From NCBI GenBank assembly GCA_000092065.1, contig CP000585.1: a stretch of 64,000 nucleotides of DNA, one strand, 5' to 3'. How positions within the stretch are numbered: position 1 is the first letter of the stretch; every line of letters starts with the position of its first letter. The DNA comes from Ostreococcus lucimarinus. Lineage: Eukaryota. The notes below the pieces were generated by a model. That model was not told the origin of the DNA. It saw only the letters and a list, made by a program, of their open reading frames with translations, and searched no databases. The translations under genes and the position numbers were made by a program. Of the stretch, positions 1 to 35,828 are shown one piece after another.

Positions 1-1714
1 GGGGAGGCACTCCAGTAATAATAGGTTGAAGTACCCCACACCGCTCCATTTGAAGGTATAGTCGAGTTGAACGTAAAATCGCGTCGATTTGCAGACACCT
101 CAACTGGCACTTGTCCAGCAATATGATTAGGAACAGCGCATCGAATCTCACGACCGTGCACGTAGCTCGCTGTAACGGGGCCCAAGGTGCCAAATCTGCA
201 TCCGAGCTCAGAGGTATCGGAGAACCCTTCACCAACCAGAGAAACGCTCATAGTACCCGTAGTGGGTCCTAAGCTCGAGCTAATGCTCGTCAGATCTATA
301 CCATCGATATAATCAAGACCAGTCGAGGTGAAAGGGCCGATGCCGACGCCACTGGAATCTGTCCGACTGCCAAGTTGAGCTTTTATAATTGAGCCTCCAG
401 AAGCGTGGTTCGGCGTTTGAATGACGATCAAAGCAGACGAGACAATGTTGTAGTCGACGTTCGCATCATCAACGCTGAGTTTAAGAACTTCACTCTTTAA
501 ATCTGTGCCTGAAATCCACACTTGGCTGCCTCCTGCAGCGGGTGTGACTCGTGGGTTCAAACCAGTTATCGTCGGCACCGGTTGCACCATGACTTGATCG
601 AAAGAAACACCTCCAACTTCGTCTATGGCTGAGACTGTAGTGAAGCCTCCAGGTAGTTGCGGCGCGATATACACGCTGACTATGGTGCTCGACATTGTCG
701 CGTTTCCTCGACCGAATTCGACGAAGGACAAAGTAGGAACTAGCAAGTAGGACGCCGAGCTTCTCCACAAGAAGAAGTAACCGCCTTGCTTGCTAGAAAC
801 GCCGTGATCCAAAATAACTGGCGGATCTACTGGCGCAACGTAAGTCATGGGGCTTGACGCACAGCTTTTCGATGGCGACAATGCGCTATAAACACTCGCG
901 CATACACTCGAACTCGCCGATGAAACACCAGCCGGGGACACGCACGTCACAACCAGTGAACTGACGTACTGCGCAGCGATGGGACCAATTGAACCAAACG
1001 AACACACGGCAGAGTTGTCTATGAGAGGAATGTTCGTGCCTGTGAGCGTAACCAACGTCCCTCCAATATCACCGCTCGACGATGGCGCGATGCTCGAGAC
1101 CACCGGAGCAGCTTGTCGAGACAGTGGGTAAGCGCCATCGCCACCCTCGATGGTCAAGCGCGTCGACACTTTTGTCGTCGCGACTGACTCGCACCGGATC
1201 AAACTAGAGGAGATTATGTGTGGCGCAACCGCGCTCGTGGCGTCAAATAAACAGTGGAATTGATCGGCATCATCAGCGATAAAGTGCTGCACGGTCAACG
1301 TGAATAGCTCACCAGGCATAGTTGACGCGCCAGGAGGGGAAACGCTCAGCAATAGTGGCGTCTCTTTGATCAAATACGAAACGCTCATCGTCTGGCCGCG
1401 CGAAATCACGCTCACGGCAGTGTAACCAACGCCAACAGGGTCGAGCGTGCACGCAAACTCGGACGCCCAAGTAGAGTTGAGCGAGAGAGCGATCCCATCG
1501 CAAGATGCGCTCGCCAACCAAGCGCCGAGAATAGTCACCGACGCTGGCAACTCCGTGGCACTCAAGCTCGGTGGCAGCGTCTCGGTGATTTCAGAAGTGG
1601 ACACGTACGTTATGTCTTTGGATGTTGTCGATGATAGGCCATCGGCGTGCACCCTAAACTTCGTACTGGTGCTATCGACCAGATGAGCGGGACTCACACA
1701 GTTTGCCGCTGTGC
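1..1714 (-). CDS. IPT/TIG-repeat protein coding continuation (partial, runs off the window start); either the true 3' part of the 1672..6702 gene or a 5'-truncated paralog/pseudogene
   Basis: Minus-strand translation from 1714 down to 1 has no stop codon (571 codons) and encodes IPT/TIG-like repeats (e.g. VTPAAGGSQVWISGTDL, GPTTGTMSVSLVGEGF, CRFGTLGPV). Positions 965..1714 are identical to 2814..3563, which is coding in the large gene. The frame is +1 relative to the 1672..6702 ORF, so it is not joined to it as the sequence stands. Confidence 0.5.
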
Positions 1715-2679
1715 ATGCCGACAGCGGCGAAGCCTTCTTCACCGGCGGGATTCGCGCATTCAACTTCACCAAAGCGGCTAATCGTACCAGCTACCGCAGC
1801 ACCACTCATCACGCAATCATAGCTATCGCCTACACTGCCAGCCAAACCAAAGAGGCTGATGGCAGTACCACCAGCTAGAGGGCTTGTAGGAGGAATGATG
1901 GCGACTACGTCAACACCCGTGCTGTACACGAATGACTGCGCCGTGTCCGCGTACACATTGCCCAGGATAGCGACTTGAATATCAACCGTTTCATCGTAGT
2001 ACGACGGAGCGGTACACTCCACTTTCTTATCGTGTATAGTTCGTGCTTCGATGTACGAAACCGTACCTATGCGACAGTAGACAACGCCGCCGCCCTCAAA
2101 ACCAGTTCCCGTGACGGTGACGACGGTGCCGCCAGCCAATACTCCTCGTGTCGGACTGACACTACTCATCGTGAGTATGTCGACCACGCTCAGCGACATT
2201 ACCGTTCGACTCCACACGCCGTCGTCACTCGCGCTACCAAACCCGACTTGTGCATCCGTATTGCCGACGGCGCCCACCAAATGGGAAGCGCACTTGACCA
2301 AAGCAGATGACACGAAAGTCGCGTCTACGGCTTTGTCACCAAAGGAGCAGAGTACATTCGCCTCGTCGACAAAGTCTGAGCCTAGCATATAAACGACAGT
2401 TGGAATGAAGTTCTGGAGAACGACGGGAATCGAGCCTGACACAATTGGAGACGTGTAGTAAGCAAACGCCGCAGGTTCGCTCACGCGCTCGTCGCTTGCA
2501 AAAGTGTACGAGTAAACCTGAACGAAACCCGGTGTCGTGCTACCTGAAACGGTACATGGGTCGAGTAGAACACCACCGACTTTGCACCCTGTACCGCCGC
2601 TGTAGACAACCGACCAGACCAGGCTCAGAGATGTTGATCCGACGTTGTTCACGACAGACGGCATGACGGCGCCGAGAAT
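965..2679. repeat. Lower copy of a ~2.2 kb intragenic segmental duplication (segment A 965..1714 + segment B 1715..2679)
   Basis: 965..1714 equals 2814..3563 (offset 1849) and 1715..2679 equals 4013..4977 (offset 2298), with one mismatch seen near 2659 (gac vs gat). Six-frame ORFs 1309..1521, 1447..1686, 1975..2310 and 2111..2392 give proteins identical to 3158..3370, 3296..3535, 4273..4608 and 4409..4690. Confidence 0.9.
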
Positions 2680-5600
2680 GTCCGATCGCTGAAGCGCGTG
2701 TGTAGTATTGCAGCTTCTGGACGGTGATGCAGTGCTGAAAACGCTCACACAGATATTTGCCGATGAACTCACCACACCTGCAGGAGACACACACTGTACT
2801 GTCGTAGTAGTGGCGTACTGCGCAGCGATGGGACCAATTGAACCAAACGAACACACGGCAGAGTTGTCTATGAGAGGAATGTTCGTGCCTGTGAGCGTAA
2901 CCAACGTCCCTCCAATATCACCGCTCGACGATGGCGCGATGCTCGAGACCACCGGAGCAGCTTGTCGAGACAGTGGGTAAGCGCCATCGCCACCCTCGAT
3001 GGTCAAGCGCGTCGACACTTTTGTCGTCGCGACTGACTCGCACCGGATCAAACTAGAGGAGATTATGTGTGGCGCAACCGCGCTCGTGGCGTCAAATAAA
3101 CAGTGGAATTGATCGGCATCATCAGCGATAAAGTGCTGCACGGTCAACGTGAATAGCTCACCAGGCATAGTTGACGCGCCAGGAGGGGAAACGCTCAGCA
3201 ATAGTGGCGTCTCTTTGATCAAATACGAAACGCTCATCGTCTGGCCGCGCGAAATCACGCTCACGGCAGTGTAACCAACGCCAACAGGGTCGAGCGTGCA
3301 CGCAAACTCGGACGCCCAAGTAGAGTTGAGCGAGAGAGCGATCCCATCGCAAGATGCGCTCGCCAACCAAGCGCCGAGAATAGTCACCGACGCTGGCAAC
3401 TCCGTGGCACTCAAGCTCGGTGGCAGCGTCTCGGTGATTTCAGAAGTGGACACGTACGTTATGTCTTTGGATGTTGTCGATGATAGGCCATCGGCGTGCA
3501 CCCTAAACTTCGTACTGGTGCTATCGACCAGATGAGCGGGACTCACACAGTTTGCCGCTGTGCTTGATGACCACTGCGCCGAAACAAGAATCGTGCCGAA
3601 GGAACAATATAGAGTGTTGTCGTTTGGCATGTTCGAGCCCGTCACGTACACGACGCTCCCGCCCGAAATAGCAATCCCAGTCGGAGTCACAGAGCTCAGC
3701 GTGACGGCAGCGCGTGACGCAAACGTCAGCGCGTTACTCACCAAGTTGCCATTTTGCTTCACACTAGCGCTGAACACGGCTGCGGTCGAAATTGGGAGCT
3801 CTGTAACGACTAGCGCTGAGCTGACAAAGTGACTCGAAGCGCCGGCGTTAGCTTCAAGAGACAGGTATGCAGAGTCACGCATGTGTGAGCCTGAAGTGTA
3901 AATCAACGTGCCACCCGACGTTGGGCCGTTCAGAGGGTAAACAGATGATATCACCGGTGCCCGCGCGTATTCGATGGTTTGCTGATCAATCTCGTCATCG
4001 ATGATGCTCCCAATGCCGACAGCGGCGAAGCCTTCTTCACCGGCGGGATTCGCGCATTCAACTTCACCAAAGCGGCTAATCGTACCAGCTACCGCAGCAC
4101 CACTCATCACGCAATCATAGCTATCGCCTACACTGCCAGCCAAACCAAAGAGGCTGATGGCAGTACCACCAGCTAGAGGGCTTGTAGGAGGAATGATGGC
4201 GACTACGTCAACACCCGTGCTGTACACGAATGACTGCGCCGTGTCCGCGTACACATTGCCCAGGATAGCGACTTGAATATCAACCGTTTCATCGTAGTAC
4301 GACGGAGCGGTACACTCCACTTTCTTATCGTGTATAGTTCGTGCTTCGATGTACGAAACCGTACCTATGCGACAGTAGACAACGCCGCCGCCCTCAAAAC
4401 CAGTTCCCGTGACGGTGACGACGGTGCCGCCAGCCAATACTCCTCGTGTCGGACTGACACTACTCATCGTGAGTATGTCGACCACGCTCAGCGACATTAC
4501 CGTTCGACTCCACACGCCGTCGTCACTCGCGCTACCAAACCCGACTTGTGCATCCGTATTGCCGACGGCGCCCACCAAATGGGAAGCGCACTTGACCAAA
4601 GCAGATGACACGAAAGTCGCGTCTACGGCTTTGTCACCAAAGGAGCAGAGTACATTCGCCTCGTCGACAAAGTCTGAGCCTAGCATATAAACGACAGTTG
4701 GAATGAAGTTCTGGAGAACGACGGGAATCGAGCCTGACACAATTGGAGACGTGTAGTAAGCAAACGCCGCAGGTTCGCTCACGCGCTCGTCGCTTGCAAA
4801 AGTGTACGAGTAAACCTGAACGAAACCCGGTGTCGTGCTACCTGAAACGGTACATGGGTCGAGTAGAACACCACCGACTTTGCACCCTGTACCGCCGCTG
4901 TAGACAACCGACCAGACCAGGCTCAGAGATGTTGATCCGACGTTGTTCACGACAGATGGCATGACGGCGCCGAGAATATCGGTTGAGTCGTAAACGAACA
5001 ACTTATCACCCCAAAATGAATGCGATATACCATCGCGGCGCCCGACACCTACGGGAATACTACCTATCATGTGCGCTGGGGTGACGCACTGTACTTGTGT
5101 GGTTGAGTAATAACTTGCCAACACGGATATTGATCCATATCTACAAAGCAAGTCATCTGTATCCTTGAAATTTGCCCCACGAACTCTGACCGCAGTCCCG
5201 CCCTCGAGGCCTCCCGTGCTCGGTAAAACGGAGCTAATCTCCGCGAGTGCAGTAAAATACACGCTAGTGATTTCCACACTCGCGCTTGGTGCACTATAAA
5301 GATACTCCTCGCCTTCAGTATGCGGAGGAATCTCACATTGAATGAGAGAGGAAGATACAAAGTGAACCGGAGCGGATGCATCCGAGCCGACTCTACATAA
5401 CGATGCAGTAGAGAGGCTGATACCGCTGAGTGATATCACCGATCCTCCAGATGTGGTGACGTATGTCGGTACGGCAGAAATATTTGTCCCAGTGTACACC
5501 ACTGTAGTTTCATCGCCAACCACTTCTGTGTACGTGTCTTCGCTGTCTGCGGGATACGCAAATGTCGGGAACGTGGTGCAAGGCTTGAAAGAGTCTATAT

Positions 5601-6702
5601 TTGGCCCGGTCCAAAGTTCAACGCTCGTGCTCGGATGTTGCGAAGCCGGAGAGATGCACGTAACAGTCCTATTGATCGTCAACGTGTCCATCACCGCGCT
5701 TACCGTGATTGTGCCGAAATGACATGAATAACCAAACATGTTATTCGGCTCGACGAGATCTTCGTTCCCACTTCCCTGAAGCACGACGGCGACGCCTCCG
5801 TATTCAGCCTTGGTAGAATTCCACGTGGTGAAAATTTCTATCGAGCATGGCTCTCGCCAAACTTCGAATGCCCGACTACCGCTGAGAGATCCCGAGTCTC
5901 CCCAGGAACGCAAAGACGTGTCGGTCATCCCGACTGTCGAAAAAGCCGGCGTCTCGCACTTCATAAATGCACTGGAAACGACCTCTGAGGGCGCTAACCC
6001 GCTCACAGCCGGCACTGTGCCGGTACTTCCGGCCCCAAACGCGCATTTGCTCGATCCGGGCACAAAGTTTGAACCGCTCACTCGCAACACCCCGCCCCCA
6101 CCTATATCCCATCCGTACGGAAACACTTGCTCGAGCTTCACCGGCTCGTGCAGCGTAAATGTGATCCTATCGCTAGTAAAATCTAATCCATTCATCGAAA
6201 CCTCGACGTAGGCATATCCTTTACTCAACCGTAGACTCGGTGACACCGTGCACCGCACTAACGTCGAGCTGACGTGCGTGAGCGGCACCACAAAGTCCCC
6301 GACTCGACACGCCGACACGTTCGTCGAAAAGAACGACGCGCCGTGCACGTCTACGGTTAAATTATTCTGATTCAACTGCGACGAAGGCCACACTCCCCAA
6401 TCCGCGGGATCCAGCATCTCCACTCCCGCGTTCGTCGTTCGCGCCACCGACGCGACGAGCGCGACGAGCGCCCACACACCCCGTCCTCGCGCCGTCGTCG
6501 TCCTCGCCCGCCCTCGCGCTCGCCCGTTCAAACGCCGCGACGTCGTCCCCGCGCCCACCCCATCGTCGTCGACCGTTTCGATCGTCCTCGACGTCGTCCC
6601 GCGCGACGTTTCCAACGTCCACCACCGCGTCATCGCTCTTTCGCCGCCGTCCCGCGCGTCGTCGACGCTTCGCGCGCGCGTCATCGCGCTCGAATCAATC
6701 AA
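1672..6702 (-). CDS. Giant secreted/surface IPT/TIG-domain repeat protein (1676 aa ORF; N-terminal hydrophobic segment; real ATG probably at MTRARS or MTRWW a few codons in)
   Basis: Continuous 5 kb ORF. Reiterated TIG-like units (PTSGPLAGGTAISLFG, GGTVVTVTGTGF, SPTRGVLAGGT, C[RS]FG[ST]I motifs). A hydrophobic stretch VWALVALVASVA near the N-terminus. The protein contains an internal ~330-aa perfect repeat. Confidence 0.8.
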   Translation of the reverse strand: MIDSSAMTRARSVDDARDGGERAMTRWWTLETSRGTTSRTIETVDDDGVGAGTTSRRLNGRARGRARTTTARGRGVWALVALVASVARTTNAGVEMLDPADWGVWPSSQLNQNNLTVDVHGASFFSTNVSACRVGDFVVPLTHVSSTLVRCTVSPSLRLSKGYAYVEVSMNGLDFTSDRITFTLHEPVKLEQVFPYGWDIGGGGVLRVSGSNFVPGSSKCAFGAGSTGTVPAVSGLAPSEVVSSAFMKCETPAFSTVGMTDTSLRSWGDSGSLSGSRAFEVWREPCSIEIFTTWNSTKAEYGGVAVVLQGSGNEDLVEPNNMFGYSCHFGTITVSAVMDTLTINRTVTCISPASQHPSTSVELWTGPNIDSFKPCTTFPTFAYPADSEDTYTEVVGDETTVVYTGTNISAVPTYVTTSGGSVISLSGISLSTASLCRVGSDASAPVHFVSSSLIQCEIPPHTEGEEYLYSAPSASVEITSVYFTALAEISSVLPSTGGLEGGTAVRVRGANFKDTDDLLCRYGSISVLASYYSTTQVQCVTPAHMIGSIPVGVGRRDGISHSFWGDKLFVYDSTDILGAVMPSVVNNVGSTSLSLVWSVVYSGGTGCKVGGVLLDPCTVSGSTTPGFVQVYSYTFASDERVSEPAAFAYYTSPIVSGSIPVVLQNFIPTVVYMLGSDFVDEANVLCSFGDKAVDATFVSSALVKCASHLVGAVGNTDAQVGFGSASDDGVWSRTVMSLSVVDILTMSSVSPTRGVLAGGTVVTVTGTGFEGGGVVYCRIGTVSYIEARTIHDKKVECTAPSYYDETVDIQVAILGNVYADTAQSFVYSTGVDVVAIIPPTSPLAGGTAISLFGLAGSVGDSYDCVMSGAAVAGTISRFGEVECANPAGEEGFAAVGIGSIIDDEIDQQTIEYARAPVISSVYPLNGPTSGGTLIYTSGSHMRDSAYLSLEANAGASSHFVSSALVVTELPISTAAVFSASVKQNGNLVSNALTFASRAAVTLSSVTPTGIAISGGSVVYVTGSNMPNDNTLYCSFGTILVSAQWSSSTAANCVSPAHLVDSTSTKFRVHADGLSSTTSKDITYVSTSEITETLPPSLSATELPASVTILGAWLASASCDGIALSLNSTWASEFACTLDPVGVGYTAVSVISRGQTMSVSYLIKETPLLLSVSPPGASTMPGELFTLTVQHFIADDADQFHCLFDATSAVAPHIISSSLIRCESVATTKVSTRLTIEGGDGAYPLSRQAAPVVSSIAPSSSGDIGGTLVTLTGTNIPLIDNSAVCSFGSIGPIAAQYATTTTVQCVSPAGVVSSSANICVSVFSTASPSRSCNTTHALQRSDILGAVMPSVVNNVGSTSLSLVWSVVYSGGTGCKVGGVLLDPCTVSGSTTPGFVQVYSYTFASDERVSEPAAFAYYTSPIVSGSIPVVLQNFIPTVVYMLGSDFVDEANVLCSFGDKAVDATFVSSALVKCASHLVGAVGNTDAQVGFGSASDDGVWSRTVMSLSVVDILTMSSVSPTRGVLAGGTVVTVTGTGFEGGGVVYCRIGTVSYIEARTIHDKKVECTAPSYYDETVDIQVAILGNVYADTAQSFVYSTGVDVVAIIPPTSPLAGGTAISLFGLAGSVGDSYDCVMSGAAVAGTISRFGEVECANPAGEEGFAAVGMHSGKLCESRSSGR
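2814..4977. repeat. Upper copy of the segmental duplication (A' 2814..3563, unique segment C 3564..4012, B' 4013..4977)
   Basis: See the lower copy. Segment C (449 bp, not a multiple of 3) is present only here; its absence between A and B in the lower copy shifts the reading frame. Confidence 0.9.
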
Positions 6703-7017: not shown

Positions 7018-7899
7018 ATGTCGAACGGCGATGACGACGACGCGCGCGCGAACGACGGCGCGGACGACGCGAAGGCGACGGGAGACGCGACGGGAGACGC
7101 GAACGCCGGCGACGGGGACAATCGGCGGACGGCGCGAGACGGCGCGCGAGCGACGCGCGAGGGCGACGACGGCGAGGACGCGCGACCGCGAGGGAAGAGG
7201 CCGGACATCTCGAACTTGGTGTCGGTGAAGATCGATAACGTGTCGTACGAGCTGCGGGAGGAGGATCTGCGCGAGGCGTTCGAGAAGTTTGGGGACGTCG
7301 GGGACGTGTACATTCCGAAGGAGCGCGGGAGCTATCGCGCGCGGGGGTTCGCGTTCGTGAGGTATCACTCGAGAGAACACGCGGAGGCGGCGGTGAGCGC
7401 GATGCACGAGACGGAGTTGGGCGGGAGACACATTCGAGCCGCCATCGCGGAGCGTGGACGCCCGGAGGGAGGGTACCAAGCGAACAATAACCGCGGTAGA
7501 TACGAAGCCAGACGGCCGTACGACGACGATCGAAGAAGGGACGATTACAGAGACCGTCGCAGAGACAGCGACGGGTACCGCAGAGACGATTATCGCAGAG
7601 ACGATTATCGCAGAGACGATTATCGCAGAGACGATTATCGCAGAGATGATTATCGCAGAGACGACTACAGAGACCGTCGCGACGACTACAGAGACCGTCG
7701 CGACGACTACAGAGATCGACGCGACGATTACAGAGATCGACGACGAGACGATTACAGAGACCGACGAGACGATAGCAGACGGAGCGGTTACTCGGGTCAC
7801 GATGACCGACGTGGCTACGACGACCATCGAGGACGTGACGATAGATACGACGGGCGTCGGGACTCTCGCTCGGCTCCGCCGCCGCCGTCGCGCGAATGA
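7018..7899 (+). CDS. RRM-domain SR-like RNA-binding protein with a C-terminal Arg-Asp-Tyr repeat tail, (RDDYR)n and (YRDRRDD)n
   Basis: ATG at 7018. RNP-2-like VSVKIDNV and RNP-1 RGFAFVRY. An acidic N-terminus and a C-terminal tail of RDDYR units. The 378-aa ORF on the opposite strand (6778..7914) is a repeat-driven antisense artefact. Confidence 0.8.
   Translation: MSNGDDDDARANDGADDAKATGDATGDANAGDGDNRRTARDGARATREGDDGEDARPRGKRPDISNLVSVKIDNVSYELREEDLREAFEKFGDVGDVYIPKERGSYRARGFAFVRYHSREHAEAAVSAMHETELGGRHIRAAIAERGRPEGGYQANNNRGRYEARRPYDDDRRRDDYRDRRRDSDGYRRDDYRRDDYRRDDYRRDDYRRDDYRRDDYRDRRDDYRDRRDDYRDRRDDYRDRRRDDYRDRRDDSRRSGYSGHDDRRGYDDHRGRDDRYDGRRDSRSAPPPPSRE
7579..7770 (+). repeat. Coding tandem repeats: 15-bp unit cgcagagacgattat (~6 copies) followed by 21-bp unit gactacagagaccgtcgcgac (~4 copies)
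   Basis: Seen directly in the sequence. They encode the RDDYR and YRDRRDD repeat tail of the RRM protein. Coordinates are approximate (+/- a few nt). Confidence 0.7.
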
Positions 7900-31063: not shown

Positions 31064-32017
31064 TCATGTGCGCTCGAAAAGCTTGACTTTAATTTGCGTG
31101 ATGCGTAGACCCAACGAAACATCCTCGTTTACGTCGACGAGCTTCGGCGCGTCGGATAAATTTCCAGTCGTTTGAAATTTCTTCAAGCCGTCTCGAATGC
31201 GCTTCAAAACGCTTTCATCTGCGTCGGCTGCGTCCAAACAAGCCGTCAGCTCATCCATGCTCAGCGCGTCTAGCTTGTAACCGACGCCGCGCACCGCGTC
31301 TGATTCGGCGCTTCCGCGCCTTTCTTCGTGCGTTTCATCGTCACCGGCACCGTCGCGCGCGCGCGAATCGCTCGGAATCAATATCCAATCTTCTGCAACA
31401 ATTCTTTTCTGCGTCTCGATCAGTTTTTCAATCTCTTCCTCGACCGTTCGTGGCGTCGTTTGCGCCCTCGATTCTTCCCCGTTTCCCGCGTTTCCCGCGA
31501 GCGCCTCCCGCGCGCTCCCGCACGCTCGCGCGAACAACTCTCGCACGTGCGCCCTGAGTTGTCGTCGCGTCATCTCGGCCAATTTCTCCGGTACGTGTAT
31601 ATCTTTCGTTTTGAACGCCATCTCGAACCCTCTCTTCTTCATCGCCATCTCCAGCGCCCGCGGATCGGCGCTCGCGTACGCGCCTCGTCCCTCGCGTTCG
31701 CCCCGCGCGTCCGGCGCCACCCATCGTCGCTTCTCCCCGTCCATCGCCAGCACGTATCTCACCAGCAGCGCTCGCGGAAAGTGTGCGTTCACCCCCACGC
31801 ACCGTCTTCGAGGCATCAGCGCCAGCCTCGCCCCGTGCGTCGTCCCGTCGAGCGCCCACGCGTCGTCGCATCGCCGCAGCGCCCGCTTCAATCGCTCGCC
31901 CGTCGCGTCGTCGTCGTCCCGCGTCGCCGTCGCCGTCGCCGTCGACGTCGTCGCGACGGCGCGTCGCGCGACCTCACCGCCGCGCGTCGCGCGCGCGATC
32001 CCTCGCGCGCGCGACAT
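31064..32017 (-). CDS. Hypothetical protein (unrecognised; start uncertain)
   Basis: Long ORF with plausible composition in its C-terminal two thirds (...ALEMAMKKRGFEMAFKTKDIHVPEKLAEMTRRQLRAHVRELF...YKLDALSMDELTACLDAADADESVLKRIRDGLKK...). Listed start 32083 is TTG; first ATG at 32017. I recognise no family. Confidence 0.4.
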   Translation of the reverse strand: MSRARGIARATRGGEVARRAVATTSTATATATRDDDDATGERLKRALRRCDDAWALDGTTHGARLALMPRRRCVGVNAHFPRALLVRYVLAMDGEKRRWVAPDARGEREGRGAYASADPRALEMAMKKRGFEMAFKTKDIHVPEKLAEMTRRQLRAHVRELFARACGSAREALAGNAGNGEESRAQTTPRTVEEEIEKLIETQKRIVAEDWILIPSDSRARDGAGDDETHEERRGSAESDAVRGVGYKLDALSMDELTACLDAADADESVLKRIRDGLKKFQTTGNLSDAPKLVDVNEDVSLGLRITQIKVKLFERT

Positions 32018-32426
32018 CGCGCGCGTCGCGACGTGCCGCGCATCCGTCGTCGCCCGAACAACCGACCGCTCGAGCGCCCACAACCCTAATTCTAACGAAC
32101 GGGCGATCGATCGGGCGATCGATCGGGCGAAAACACGAACGGCGCGGGAAACGGAATGCCGCGGTGGCGTCGACGGCGAAGCGCGACGCGAGCGACGACG
32201 CGCGACGCGAGCGAGACGACGGGTCGACGGCGCGCGAACGCGCGCGTGGAGAACGCGCGTGCGATGCGCGCGCGGACGACGCGCGTCGCGTCGACGCGCG
32301 CGAGAAGAGGACGGGAAGGAATTGCATCGTTTTGAGACGACGCGCGATATGGATGCGCGCGCGCGACGCGCGGACGGGGGAAACGGACGCGCGAGGGAGA
32401 CGAGACGGGAAAAAAGTGTGACGACG

Positions 32427-35400
32427 ATGCGATGGAGGACGAGCGGAAGGTTATGGACGGCGGTGGTGTGGACGCTGGCGACGATTGCGCGAGGGAGGAC
32501 GGCGACGGCGCAGTATCAGACGACGGCGACGACGCTGACGTTGGAGCACGTGTGGCCGGATACTGGAGCGGTGTACGCGTCGACGGTGGTGTCGTTGTAT
32601 GGGAGTGGATACGCGAACGCGTTGCCGCCGATGGGGTGTCGGTTCGGGGAGATTGTCGCGAATAAGGACTCGGCCGCGAGCACGACTTCGAAAGTCGTGT
32701 GCGCGACGCCGACCAACGTCTTCGCGGGTTTCGTCGCCGTTGGGTTGGCGCAGGCGACGGGAAAGAGATACGTTCCCGGGTCAGATGATTTAGTCGTGGA
32801 CAACGGGCAGCATTCTTTCGAATTCGTCGTGCCTTGGAAACTATCCAAAGTGAATCCAGAGTACGCGTACAAGAGCGGCGGCGAAGTTCTGCGACTTTCA
32901 GGGACACATTTTCGTCCAGGAATGCTGTGCACGTTCAAAGACTCTTCGCTGACATCCGAGTACAGATTCATTTCTTCTGCGTTAGCCATGTGTGAGACCC
33001 GTGCGTCGAGCGAAGCGGAAGGAACGGTGGATTTGAATCTCACTCCAACTCACGCCGTCGGAGGCGGCGGCGCGAGCGTCGAGTACCAAACCGCGCCCAT
33101 CATAGATGGGCCTTTAGTGTCCACCACCGCAGTTGGTGGTGACGTAGTGATACAAGCATCAAGTAGTACTCCGCTGAGCGGCGCCATAGCATCGTTCACG
33201 GCGAGTCCGATTCGTATCGGATGCTGGTTTGACGGCATTTGGGTGGCGGCGACTCTGCGCAGCGAAAGAGAGTTGGTGTGCAAAGCGCCTTTGCAGTCAT
33301 TCGGCACTCCATCGCTGAGTGTCGTGGATATGTATGCTCAAAGAATGTTTCCGACGAATGCAACTCAGACTGGTTGGTTCACCTCATTCACCGTGAGCAA
33401 AGACGAAGTTGTCGACGTCGTGTTGCCTTCGGTTGGCAATGCGATGCGAAATACGGTGGCCGATTCTTCGACTCTGGTCGACTTTTTCGGCCGCAACCTT
33501 ATTGCTGGCTCGGGTTCTGTTGGTGCACGCATTTGCCAAGCCTTGAACCCGGTTACATCTCCCGTTTTAGTGACGAATCAGGTCCAAAGCAAATGTGATT
33601 TTCCGGCGACACCATCCGAGACAGCGGCGCTGTCCACGCTCAGATACGGCTTTCACGCTGTGAGTGCAGGAGCCGGTGCAAGTGCCTCAGCGCAATTTCT
33701 GATTGTCTCGCCACCACAAATTACGTCGGTGGTACCGGGATTTCTTCGTGCGGGTACTGTCGCGACATTTTCGGGACAAAATCTCATGGACCCGTTTCGG
33801 CAAACATGGTGTGGGCACGACGGTATAGCTCTCGTCGCGCACGCGGTGTCGAGCGCGCTCATCCGATGCTCAGTCCCGTACCATCATCAGCTGCCTTCGG
33901 GTTCCTCTAGTTCTGCGCACGATCTAACCATAGACGTGCTTTCTGATTTATCGTCGCCGGGGGCCGGAGGAACCACCATGGGCTGGCTACCAGTAGCGAA
34001 TGATTTAGAGAGCATCACGCCAAACGTCGGAGCGACGAGCGGTGGCACTCGAACGGTGCTGAAACTCACGGGTGGAACTATCCCAACTTCATCTTATTAC
34101 ACACCCACGTGCAGATTTGGCACGATAGTAACGTCGGCGATACACGTCCCTGGAGGTGGAGTTGCGTGTAGCTCTCCTGCATACGCCGCGCGTAACGTGA
34201 CGGTGGGCATTGACGTCGAGTCGACGATAGAATTTCAGTACGTCGCACAGATTGGTGTGAGTGCCATAGTACCAGGAGCTCTTCCACAGAATGGGGGCTC
34301 GATATCTGTGTACTTGGATGCGGCACTTTCGTCTTCGTATTCAGCTGACTGCGTTTTCGTCACCAGCGGCGGGGATAAATTAAAGTCTTCTCTCGCCGAT
34401 TCCTCGGGAACGCTCAAGTGCGCCTCGCCGCAGACTGGTATTGGCTTTGCAACGATGGCGATCGTCGTATCTGCGGCTAGCACGAACAACACTGCGTTTA
34501 TAGACGAAGCAGCTGGGCAGTACTTCGACCTTGAAGTTCAAACCAGAACGCCTGGGGTGGAAGTTTTCCTCCCAACGGGCGCGAATTGGGTACAGGCGGA
34601 GGAAGTCATACACGCTGTGACGTCTGATGGATCTCTTCTCGGCGACAATTCGGGAGACGACGATTTCTGGTGTGTGTTCGGAAAAGCTGGAATATATGGA
34701 GGGTCAATATATTTGAGTGCGGCGAGTAGAGTATCGGGAACTATCCTGAAGTGCACCGTACCAGACCTCGATACGCTAATAGTTTCTGGGCAGAGTGGAT
34801 TTGAGATTGTCATCGGTATTTGTTCTTCGACTGAAGTTTCGGCGAGCAGTTGCACCAGTTACGCGGGAACACGCGTGAGATACGAGAAAAAGCTGGGAGT
34901 TTCTTCAGTACTTCCAGTGAACGGTACGCAAGCAGGAGGCGATGTTGCAGTTCTCGTTGACTCTGCATCCGTGAAAGGTTTCGGCGCAAACGTGCCAAGC
35001 TGCAGATTTGGCACAATCTATCCCGTTGCGGGAACTTCGGTAACTGGAACGGGCGAGATAAATTGCGTGACACCGGCGCATGCTGCGGGTGTCGTTCCTG
35101 TGAGTGTTCCTCCGCTCGATTTGGGGTTGACGGCTTTGACATTTGAGTATATTTCCGTGTCCACTTCGCAATCGGTCTTGTCCACGACGTACGGCGCCGA
35201 TCCGTACGTCGTTGCATACCTGATTGAACCGACACCAATGATCACAGAGGTCGTGCCTTGGGTTGGTTGGAGTGGAAGTGTTGTCACCTTGCTAGGCACA
35301 AACTTTCCAACTGGATCCGCCGTCAAGTGCAGATTCGGATCTGTCTCCGTCGATGCTCAGGTTGTTTCTACGGCTGTGATACAGTGCGGCGATACTTCGC

Positions 35401-35828
35401 CGATTACCTCTGACGACGTCGAAGAGCAGCGCGTCGCTGTCACGACGAGTTCGGGCGATTCAAATCCGAATGTGACGACGTTAGCACACTATGTCATTAC
35501 TCAAGGAGATATCAGCGCCATTGATGCCGCTGACGGTTGGCAACAGGGTGGAAACGTAGTCGGCGTCACCGTTGCCAAGTGGGTCCCTGAAGGCTACACA
35601 TCCTGTCGCTTTGGCACGATAACCGTTCAGAGTAGAGGCGGAGACGGCTTCGGTGCGATTGGCAAGGCGTCGGTATCGCAGTCATCGCAGTGGTGGTCAG
35701 ATTCGACTGATGGCAAGAAAATAGAGTGCGTATCTCCAGCAGGAGCGCAAGGAAACGTAAATTTGGGAGTATCCATCCTCGGAAGCACTGCATCGTCTTT
35801 CATTGGTACTACGTTTACCTACATTTAG
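32427..35828 (+). CDS. Second large secreted IPT/TIG-domain repeat protein (signal peptide; 1133 aa), paralogous in type to the 1672..6702 gene
   Basis: MRWRTSGRLWTAVVWTLATIARG signal peptide at 32427 (frame arithmetic). Repeated TIG-like units with C[RS]FG[TE]I motifs (CRFGEIVANK, CRFGTIVTSA, CRFGTIYPVAG, CRFGSVSVD, CRFGTITVQS). The listed ORF start at 31611 lies inside the neighbouring minus-strand gene and is an artefact. Confidence 0.8.
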   Translation: MRWRTSGRLWTAVVWTLATIARGRTATAQYQTTATTLTLEHVWPDTGAVYASTVVSLYGSGYANALPPMGCRFGEIVANKDSAASTTSKVVCATPTNVFAGFVAVGLAQATGKRYVPGSDDLVVDNGQHSFEFVVPWKLSKVNPEYAYKSGGEVLRLSGTHFRPGMLCTFKDSSLTSEYRFISSALAMCETRASSEAEGTVDLNLTPTHAVGGGGASVEYQTAPIIDGPLVSTTAVGGDVVIQASSSTPLSGAIASFTASPIRIGCWFDGIWVAATLRSERELVCKAPLQSFGTPSLSVVDMYAQRMFPTNATQTGWFTSFTVSKDEVVDVVLPSVGNAMRNTVADSSTLVDFFGRNLIAGSGSVGARICQALNPVTSPVLVTNQVQSKCDFPATPSETAALSTLRYGFHAVSAGAGASASAQFLIVSPPQITSVVPGFLRAGTVATFSGQNLMDPFRQTWCGHDGIALVAHAVSSALIRCSVPYHHQLPSGSSSSAHDLTIDVLSDLSSPGAGGTTMGWLPVANDLESITPNVGATSGGTRTVLKLTGGTIPTSSYYTPTCRFGTIVTSAIHVPGGGVACSSPAYAARNVTVGIDVESTIEFQYVAQIGVSAIVPGALPQNGGSISVYLDAALSSSYSADCVFVTSGGDKLKSSLADSSGTLKCASPQTGIGFATMAIVVSAASTNNTAFIDEAAGQYFDLEVQTRTPGVEVFLPTGANWVQAEEVIHAVTSDGSLLGDNSGDDDFWCVFGKAGIYGGSIYLSAASRVSGTILKCTVPDLDTLIVSGQSGFEIVIGICSSTEVSASSCTSYAGTRVRYEKKLGVSSVLPVNGTQAGGDVAVLVDSASVKGFGANVPSCRFGTIYPVAGTSVTGTGEINCVTPAHAAGVVPVSVPPLDLGLTALTFEYISVSTSQSVLSTTYGADPYVVAYLIEPTPMITEVVPWVGWSGSVVTLLGTNFPTGSAVKCRFGSVSVDAQVVSTAVIQCGDTSPITSDDVEEQRVAVTTSSGDSNPNVTTLAHYVITQGDISAIDAADGWQQGGNVVGVTVAKWVPEGYTSCRFGTITVQSRGGDGFGAIGKASVSQSSQWWSDSTDGKKIECVSPAGAQGNVNLGVSILGSTASSFIGTTFTYI

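What the first reader, a model, noticed from the sequence alone, without database searches (positions are those of the whole stretch)
965..4977. Near-perfect 2.2-kb tandem segmental duplication inside a giant IPT/TIG gene; the lower copy has a 449-bp deletion that breaks the frame
Segments 965..1714 and 1715..2679 match 2814..3563 and 4013..4977 essentially base-for-base (one mismatch noticed). The 449-bp segment C (3564..4012) is coding in the upper copy but missing between A and B in the lower copy. Because 449 is not a multiple of 3, the 5 kb ORF runs into a stop at 1672 just past the A/B junction (1714|1715). Such high identity over 2 kb implies either a very recent duplication or gene conversion, or a collapsed or mis-joined repeat in the assembly. 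If real, it shows how these giant repeat proteins grow by unit duplication and how one copy is being truncated.
Basis: seen in the sequence. Interest (0 to 1): 0.6.

Follow-up and report, generated by a model that had tools for sequence, protein, structure and literature searches.

The report
Real gene duplication, reference-only frameshift deletion
A giant surface-type protein gene of the marine alga Ostreococcus lucimarinus really does carry a 2.3-kb internal duplication that also occurs, unbroken, in wild populations. The 449-base deletion that breaks the gene is found only in the reference genome sequence, so it is either a sequencing or assembly error or a very recent change in the lab strain.

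Summary
Window 965-1714 equals 2814-3563 (0/750 mismatches) and 1715-2679 equals 4013-4977 (1/965). Segment C (3564-4012, 449 nt) is missing from the lower copy, and the minus-strand ORF stops at 1672. The window is Ostreococcus lucimarinus CCE9901. The break is already annotated there as two gene models, XP_001418053.1 and the 5'-partial XP_001418052.1.

The duplication is not an assembly artefact. Fifteen independent metagenome loci carry the same 134-nt linker s' (2680-2813) between the copies. The eight loci that span copy 2 all have C in both copies, with period 2298 nt (766 codons). Gene calls in these samples are intact ORFs of 3424 or 3513 aa. Single-copy alleles (2658 aa) also exist on near-identical backgrounds.

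Re-inserting C into the window gives a sequence that matches wild contigs with no gaps (5 mismatches in 21,512 nt; 0 in 6,212 nt). The deletion junction and the truncated protein were found nowhere else. So the frameshift is private to the reference record. I judge an artefact somewhat more likely than a real mutation in the culture.

The linker s' is anciently diverged from its counterpart s* (57/108 nt, synonymous sites saturated). The copies are therefore probably kept identical by recombination, not by recency. This is an ordinary kind of event; interest is low to moderate.

The parts
4013..4977 (-). B' : first segment of duplicated unit, copy 1 (965 nt)
   Evidence: Identical to 1715-2679 except 4957T/2659C. 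Present in all wild loci.
3564..4012 (-). C : 449-nt coding segment (about aa 802-951 of the 3424-aa protein). It covers one whole TIG module plus parts of its two neighbours. In the window it is present in copy 1 only.
   Evidence: Open in frame with B' and A'. Present in single-copy orthologues including O. tauri. Present in both copies of all eight wild loci that span copy 2. Domain map.
2814..3563 (-). A' : last segment of duplicated unit, copy 1 (750 nt)
   Evidence: 0 mismatches vs 965-1714.
2680..2813 (-). s' : 134-nt linker, the novel junction of the duplication. It encodes ATTTTVQCVSPAGVVSSSANICVSVFSTASPSRSCNTTHALQRSD, the C-terminal half of a TIG module.
   Evidence: Positional homologue of s*, but 57/108 nt identical and 14 of 19 conserved codons differ synonymously. 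Closest to the sister-clade s* (74/108). Exact or 1-SNP copies occur in 15 wild loci, always between A and B.
1715..2679 (-). B : copy 2
1705..1728 (.). Deletion junction 1714|1715. It is blunt (0 nt microhomology) and bracketed by an 8-bp inverted repeat, GCCGCTGT (1705-1712) / ACAGCGGC (1721-1728), with loop GCATGCCG.
   Evidence: junction; a stem of at least 8 bp occurs in 0.5% of 5000 simulated junctions. The 26-mer across the junction has 0 hits in JGI metagenome contigs.
965..1714 (-). A : copy 2, read in a different frame from B because C is missing
857..964 (-). s* : original sequence following the unit. It is the counterpart of s' and is shared by all single-copy alleles.
1672..1674 (-). 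Premature TAG stop, 14 codons after the junction (tail MHSGKLCESRSSGR)
1675..6417 (-). Reference gene model XP_001418053.1 (1581 aa), the truncated upstream part
   Evidence: Exact look-up, (P0187). Seen on 1 contig only, the 847,696-nt reference chromosome.
3..1742 (-). Reference gene model XP_001418052.1 (1716 aa, 5' partial). It holds the downstream part of the same gene and continues past the left edge of the window.
   Evidence: its N-terminus VKKASPLSAC maps to 1742; identical over the window part
6418..6684 (-). Possible N-terminal extension (ATG at 6684) containing the hydrophobic stretch VWALVALVASVA. It is used in the 3513-aa gene calls of wild scaffolds.
   Evidence: The role as signal or anchor is inferred from the sequence only.

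Best explanation
The locus is one giant gene of Ostreococcus lucimarinus. It encodes a probably secreted or surface protein built of about 30 or more IPT/TIG (Ig-like) modules.

The species carries a genuine in-frame tandem duplication of a 2,298-nt block (766 codons; seven clear and about two degenerate TIG modules). The structure is p-[B-C-A]-s'-[B-C-A]-s*. In nature this two-copy allele is intact (3424 aa, or 3513 aa from the upstream ATG). It coexists with a one-copy allele (2658 aa) on almost identical haplotypes.

The two B-C-A copies are kept identical by recombination between them (gene conversion or unequal crossing-over). The same process can collapse two copies to one. The linker s' has no partner and stays anciently diverged.

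The 449-nt out-of-frame deletion of C in copy 2 exists only in the CCE9901 reference sequence. It is not domain-phased, has a blunt junction, and lies in the interior of a perfect 2.2-kb repeat. Most likely it is an error introduced while sequencing or finishing the repeat, for example a deleted subclone or PCR product, or a mis-join. The deposited split into two gene models would then be spurious.

Shown: the duplication, its presence in the wild, the intact wild ORF, and the deletion being private to the reference. Inferred: homogenisation by recombination, and artefact rather than real mutation.
For: Identity of the window:
- It is CCE9901, by exact matches to XP_001418071.1, XP_001418062.1 and XP_001418068.1.

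The duplication is real:
- FtsJ- and MutS2-anchored scaffolds from several ENA projects run colinearly through A'-s'-B at 99.7-99.99% identity.
- Loci L014-L019, L022 and L023 span copy 2 and show period 2298 with C in both copies.
- MEGAHIT contigs L020 and L021 break 162 nt into B, as expected at a true repeat with k = 141 and the index-20 SNP.
- P0188 (3424 aa) contains B, C and A twice and s' once.

One-copy alleles exist:
- P0160 (2658 aa) is on 15 N-free contigs with 0-1 mismatches in the flanks.

The deletion is private to the reference:
- The window with C restored matches L017 and L018 over 21,512 nt with 5 mismatches and 0 gaps, and L023 over 6,212 nt at 100%.
- The junction 26-mer has 0 hits.
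- The truncated protein is on no other contig.
- The downstream 1716-aa ORF is fully open.

Homogenisation:
- The copies differ at 1 of 1715 sites, and that site lies 21 nt from the edge of the repeat.
- s' vs s* is 57/108 nt identical, with saturated synonymous change.
- The two-copy allele is also on a haplotype about 0.5% diverged, with the same SNPs in both copies.

Artefact reading (inference):
- The deletion sits in the part of copy 2 that is 965 nt and 750 nt from the nearest unique sequence. That is about one Sanger read length.
- A random non-homologous deletion would fall in this 4.4-kb repeat of a 13-Mb genome only rarely.
Against: - CCE9901 is a finished Sanger genome, so a blunt join without read support would be unusual.
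- The junction is bracketed by an 8-bp inverted repeat (P about 0.005). This points to a physical DNA event rather than a purely computational mis-join. Such an event could equally have happened in the alga.
- No reads of CCE9901 could be examined.
- Short-read assemblers may traverse a collapsed repeat twice. 'C in copy 2' and 'same SNPs in both copies' in wild scaffolds are therefore not fully independent observations. Two JGI scaffolds that look single-copy (L005, L010) are in fact collapsed: their N-run starts exactly at unit index 20.
- The sharp 100%-to-53% boundary at A/s' is not what graded conversion tracts predict.
Confidence: 0.55

Rival explanations
1. The structure is the same, but the 449-nt deletion is a genuine, very recent mutation of strain CCE9901. 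It arose at or after isolation and truncates the protein to 1581 aa. Loss of a large surface protein could be neutral or even favoured in culture.
For: - The genome is finished.
- The junction is blunt and bracketed by an 8-bp inverted repeat, which suggests a structure-mediated physical deletion.
- The downstream ORF is still intact and the background is identical to wild haplotypes, as expected for a very young mutation.
Against: - The deletion is absent from every other data set searched.
- Its position in the read-unreachable interior of a perfect repeat is what an assembly or cloning error predicts. A random deletion would be there only by coincidence.
Confidence: 0.35
2. The duplication is very recent, so no gene conversion is needed. 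The linker s' is filler copied at the time of the event from a divergent template: an introgressed or ancient allele, or an unsampled paralogue.
For: - The boundaries on both sides of s' are sharp.
- s' is closer to the sister-clade s* (74/108) than to the species' own s* (57/108).
- Two-copy alleles were seen only in O. lucimarinus proper. They were not seen in the 95% lineage (L003) or in other clades.
Against: - No donor was found. The s' 24-mer occurs only in the A'-s'-B context, and there is no better match in the window, in the rest of the gene or in the orthologues.
- The two-copy allele is shared by haplotypes 0.5% apart.
- The only difference between the copies lies at the edge of the repeat.
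Confidence: 0.3
3. The whole duplication is an assembly artefact of the reference, for example a mis-joined or falsely expanded repeat.
For: Near-perfect 2.2-kb repeats are error-prone in assembly.
Against: The same s' junction and the 2298-nt period are present in 15 independent metagenome loci from different projects and assemblers. MEGAHIT contigs also break at the repeat edge.
Confidence: 0.01
4. C is an insertion (mobile element or intron) in the upper copy, not a deletion in the lower copy.
For: Its length is not a multiple of three, and there is no microhomology at its ends.
Against: - C is TIG-coding and in frame with its flanks.
- It is present in all single-copy orthologues, including O. 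tauri.
- Its ends on the coding strand are TG...AA, not GT...AG.
Confidence: 0.01
5. The truncated allele segregates in wild populations, so one copy is decaying naturally.
For: None beyond the reference itself.
Against: None of the eight wild loci spanning copy 2 lacks C. There were 0 junction hits. The exact truncated protein is on 1 contig only.
Confidence: 0.03

Closest known systems
Ostreococcus tauri 'Immunoglobulin-like fold' protein (P0008, 2680 aa) and its orthologues in other Ostreococcus clades (P0004 2662 aa, P0007 2720 aa)
   Same: Syntenic orthologues lying between a MutS2-like gene and an ABC transporter. They share the all-TIG architecture and about 61-63% identity, and they contain p-B-C-A-s* once.
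   Different: They have one unit only. The O. lucimarinus two-copy allele adds 766 aa and the linker s'.
Intragenic tandem repeats and domain-block duplications in large surface or adhesin proteins, with length polymorphism generated by recombination between repeats (for example yeast FLO/ALS adhesins, bacterial Ig-like adhesins, titin super-repeats). Basis: general knowledge, not tested here.
   Same: The duplication is head-to-tail and in frame, involves Ig-like modules, shows copy-number polymorphism within a species, and has near-identical copies.
   Different: The unit is unusually long (2.3 kb, about 9 modules). Only 1 or 2 copies were seen. The function of the protein is unknown.
Concerted evolution or gene conversion between tandem paralogous segments
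   Same: The paralogous segments are 99.94% identical while the adjacent linker is saturated. The only difference sits at the edge of the repeat.
   Different: The boundary at A/s' is abrupt rather than graded. Evidence from wild scaffolds is weakened by possible repeat collapse.
Split gene models caused by frameshift errors or strain-private indels in reference genomes
   Same: One gene is deposited as two adjacent, overlapping models (XP_001418053.1 and the 5'-partial XP_001418052.1) at a frameshift that no other sequence shares.
   Different: Whether the indel is an error or real in the strain is not settled.

Membership tests
IPT/TIG-domain repeat protein (Pfam PF01833) | Multiple significant matches to the TIG profile | tested here: met
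   PF01833 E = 2.7e-84 with 9 stretches in the 1701-aa frame, and E = 3.4e-28 in the downstream frame. A self-built HMM finds 31 modules in the 3424-aa wild protein.
Tandem segmental (intragenic) duplication | Two head-to-tail copies in the same orientation with a constant period | tested here: met
   Offsets are 1849 and 2298 in the window. The period is 2298 in the six loci where it was measured, L014-L019. L022 and L023 show the same segment order.
Tandem segmental (intragenic) duplication | The novel junction is reproduced in independent assemblies, so it is not an artefact | tested here: met
   s' lies between A and B in 15 wild loci from ENA and JGI.
Concerted evolution / gene conversion between the copies | The copies are far more alike than the age of the duplication allows | tested here: inconclusive
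   There is 1 difference in 1715 nt between the copies, against 51 in 108 nt between s' and s*. This is consistent with conversion. It is also explained if s' came from a divergent template at a recent event.
Concerted evolution / gene conversion between the copies | Derived SNPs are shared by both copies within a haplotype but differ between haplotypes | tested here: inconclusive
   L024 has 9 of 9 SNPs in both copies, and L015 and L016 have the index-1712 SNP in both. Short-read assemblers may have written one consensus twice.
Pseudogene by frameshift | The reading frame is disrupted in the sequence | tested here: met
   The 449-nt gap shifts the frame, with a stop at 1672.
Pseudogene by frameshift | The disruption is confirmed in independent data from the organism, or there are further degenerative changes | tested here: not met
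   No other contig has the junction or the truncated protein. The downstream 1716 aa are fully open and 99.65% identical to wild alleles. CCE9901 reads are not available with these tools.
Spliceosomal intron or mobile insertion (for segment C) | Non-coding, with GT...AG ends, or absent from orthologues | tested here: not met
   C encodes TIG modules, has TG...AA ends, and is present in all orthologues.

The most novel reading that the evidence does not exclude
The one-copy / two-copy length polymorphism of this giant TIG protein could be maintained in wild O. lucimarinus by selection on a cell-surface structure, for example virus adsorption or cell-cell recognition. The linker s' would then be a relic of an ancient or introgressed allele from a lineage near the sister clade. 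In that reading the CCE9901 truncation is a real loss-of-function that arose in culture.
Probability: 0.1. Interest if true: 0.55.

Novelty: new member of a known kind. Interest (0 to 1): 0.3.

Why it matters
For users of the O. lucimarinus CCE9901 reference, XP_001418053.1 and XP_001418052.1 are two halves of one gene. Its wild form is a single protein of 3424 or 3513 aa with two units, or 2658 aa with one unit. The frameshift should not be read as natural pseudogenisation without read-level confirmation.

For evolution, this is a clean, population-level example of a giant Ig-like repeat protein changing length by a whole 9-module block. The copies stay identical and the array can collapse back to one unit. 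It also leaves one odd detail, the anciently diverged linker s', which could point to an old duplication or to exchange between lineages.

None of this is a new kind of biology.

Tried and rejected
- Homology searches did not return the 3424-aa wild protein. It was reached only through the exact look-up of the truncated ORF.
- A donor for s' was sought in several places: by blastn and tblastn against the window and fetched loci and by blastp against the fetched orthologue proteins, and in JGI metagenome contigs. None was found.
- A mosaic origin of s' from p and s* was rejected by three-way alignment.
- L003-type (95% lineage) and sister-clade sequences were tested as the source of s'. Neither is close enough.
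- An intron or insertion reading of C was rejected (see rivals).
- Chromosome-scale contigs of 837-841 kb that carry identical neighbouring proteins could not be displayed. MutS2- and FtsJ-anchored look-ups returned only metagenome scaffolds.
- Literature searches for Ostreococcus with TIG, for tandem duplication, and for the accession numbers found nothing relevant.
- Apparent single-copy scaffolds L005 and L010 were discarded as evidence because they have N-runs exactly at the copy-distinguishing SNP.
Full report
**1. The observation**

- 965-1714 equals 2814-3563 with 0 mismatches in 750 nt.
- 1715-2679 equals 4013-4977 with one mismatch in 965 nt (2659 C / 4957 T).
- Identity collapses to background outside these limits.
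- The 449 nt at 3564-4012 (C) separate A' and B' in the upper copy and are absent at 1714|1715. The junction has no microhomology.

The gene is on the minus strand. One frame is open from 6777 to the TAG at 1672-1674. A second frame is open from 1790 to the left edge of the window. Because the offset 1849 is 1 modulo 3, this second frame is the phase in which A' is read in the upper copy. Both products are built of IPT/TIG domains.

Between A' and the lower B lies a 134-nt linker, s' (2680-2813). The repeat period is therefore 2298 nt, which is 766 codons. Read on the coding strand, the structure is p-B'-C-A'-s'-B-A-s*.

**2. What the window is**

The neighbouring ORFs are eukaryotic: NAT10, DHX37, a WPP-domain RanGAP, SET, and a MutS2-like gene. 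Exact look-ups hit XP_001418071.1, XP_001418062.1 and XP_001418068.1 of Ostreococcus lucimarinus CCE9901, on an 847,696-nt chromosome.

The ORF 1675-6417 is exactly XP_001418053.1 (1581 aa). The downstream frame from 1742 is XP_001418052.1 (1716 aa, '5' partial'). The reference annotation therefore already records the break as two overlapping gene models.

**3. Relatives**

Orthologues in O. tauri (2680 aa) and in two other clades (2662 and 2720 aa) contain p-B-C-A-s* once, with C present. They lie in the same neighbourhood, between a MutS2-like gene and an ABC transporter.

*Two-copy alleles within O. lucimarinus.*
- Scaffolds anchored on the FtsJ and MutS2 neighbours run colinearly with the window at 99.7-99.99% identity, through A', s' and into B. 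These scaffolds come from several ENA sample series.
- In all, 15 wild loci carry s', exactly or with one SNP, always between A and B.
- Eight loci span copy 2 (L014-L019, L022, L023). All of them show segment C in both copies, and the period is 2298 nt where it was measured. The two copies are identical over 2164 nt apart from the same index-20 SNP seen in the window.
- The gene is called as one ORF of 3424 aa, or 3513 aa from an upstream ATG. The difference 3424 - 2658 = 766 aa is exactly one unit.
- MEGAHIT contigs L020 and L021 stop 162 nt inside B. That is where a k = 141 graph must branch if the repeat is real.

*One-copy alleles within O. lucimarinus.*
- The 2658-aa protein P0160 occurs on 15 contigs without Ns, from MEGAHIT and SPAdes assemblies.
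- These contigs have 0-1 mismatches to the window in the flanks.

The species is therefore polymorphic for one or two units on essentially the same haplotype background. Two JGI scaffolds that look single-copy (L005, L010) carry an N-run starting exactly at the index-20 SNP. They are collapsed repeats and I do not count them.

**4. The deletion**

If C is copied back into the window at 1714|1715, the result matches wild sequences closely:
- L017 and L018 over 21,512 nt with 5 mismatches and no gap;
- JGI contig L023 over 6,212 nt at 100%.

The deletion is thus the only difference from wild haplotypes. Further points:
- A 26-mer across the junction has no match in JGI metagenome contigs, whereas an s' 24-mer has three.
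- The exact 1581-aa truncated protein is recorded on one contig only, the reference chromosome.
- The 1716 aa downstream of the break are fully open and 99.65% identical to wild alleles.
- The deletion removes about aa 802-951 of the wild protein. That is one whole TIG module plus parts of its two neighbours, so it is not a domain-phased event.
- The junction is bracketed by an 8-bp inverted repeat (GCCGCTGT / ACAGCGGC, with an 8-nt loop). Only 0.5% of simulated junctions show this.

*Real or artefact?* This cannot be settled here because no CCE9901 reads are accessible.

For an artefact (inference):
- The missing piece is the interior of copy 2. It lies 965 nt and 750 nt from the nearest unique sequence, about one Sanger read length. 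This is the part that cannot be placed without mate-pair or clone information.
- A random non-homologous deletion would fall in this 4.4-kb repeat of a 13-Mb genome only by rare coincidence.
- Nothing else in the gene has decayed.

For a real event:
- The genome was finished.
- The inverted repeat suggests a physical deletion. That could, however, equally have occurred in a subclone or PCR product used for finishing.

I put about 0.55-0.6 on artefact and 0.35 on a real, very recent mutation of the cultured strain. Natural segregation of the truncated allele is unlikely (about 0.03).

**5. Age and mechanism of the duplication**

The linker s' encodes the C-terminal half of a TIG module and is the positional homologue of s*. 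The two are nevertheless very different:
- s' shares only 57 of 108 nt with the s* of O. lucimarinus.
- 14 of the 19 codons with a conserved amino acid differ synonymously.
- This is as deep as the divergence between Ostreococcus clades (59-66 of 108).
- s' is closest to the s* of the sister clade (74 of 108).

s' has therefore evolved as coding sequence, apart from s*, for a long time. Yet the 750 nt before it and the 965 nt after it are identical between the copies. The single difference between copies lies 21 nt from the edge of the repeat.

The two-copy allele also occurs on a haplotype about 0.5% diverged (L024). There, all nine SNPs in the comparable 909 nt are present in both copies. 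A caveat applies: the assembler may have written one consensus twice.

The reading I favour (about 0.5) is an older duplication whose B-C-A blocks are continually homogenised by gene conversion or unequal crossing-over. The same process would generate one-copy alleles.

The alternative (about 0.3) is a recent event whose junction incorporated a divergent template. Allelic recombination would later have replaced everything except the unpaired s'. No donor for s' was found. The abrupt boundary at A/s' remains unexplained under either reading.

**6. Function**

The wild protein is a string of at least 31 recognisable TIG modules with no other Pfam domain. The upstream ATG adds an Arg-rich segment and a hydrophobic stretch, VWALVALVASVA. 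This suggests a secreted or membrane-anchored extracellular protein, but that is inferred only. The duplication lengthens the array by about nine modules. What the protein binds is unknown.

**7. Comparison and novelty**

This is a case of a well-known phenomenon: intragenic tandem duplication of Ig-like module blocks, with copy-number polymorphism and homogenised copies. It is combined with a frameshift private to a reference sequence that splits a gene model. I found no paper describing this locus.

It is a new member of a known kind. The practical value is a correction of the reference annotation. The only real oddity is the ancient linker s'.

Interest 0.3.

Noticed in passing
window 7018-7899 (+), repeat array 7535-7773: A 293-aa RRM protein has a C-terminal (R)RDDY(R) repeat encoded by 15-nt tandem units. 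Its called length varies among wild scaffolds (254, 276, 283, 293, 298 aa), so this is a coding minisatellite polymorphism.
   Followed up: partly
window 31611-35828 (+): A second, shorter TIG-domain ORF (1405 aa; PF01833 E = 4.7e-22) lies in the same window. It is not the source of s'.
   Followed up: partly
L005 18473-18493; L010 18436-18442: Two JGI scaffolds that appear to carry a single-copy allele have N-runs starting exactly at unit index 20, the only SNP that distinguishes the copies. They are collapsed two-copy repeats.
   Followed up: yes
L020 and L021, contig ends at 16197: MEGAHIT k141 contigs terminate 162 nt inside B, at the point where k-mers stop being copy-specific.
   Followed up: yes
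P0185 (350 aa, on an 852,425-nt ENA contig): This fragment of the sister-clade orthologue runs out of frame after GSIGPISSQ. The cause is probably an indel error in a long-read assembly.
   Followed up: no
window 6418-6684 (-): Wild scaffolds are called either from the ATG at 6417 (3424 aa) or from the ATG at 6684 (3513 aa). Only the longer form includes the hydrophobic stretch VWALVALVASVA, so the reference model XP_001418053.1 may also be N-terminally short.
   Followed up: partly
tool behaviour: The word-indexed protein search did not return the 3424-aa cluster representative P0188, although it is identical to the query over more than 1500 aa. It surfaced only through the exact-sequence look-up.
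   Followed up: no
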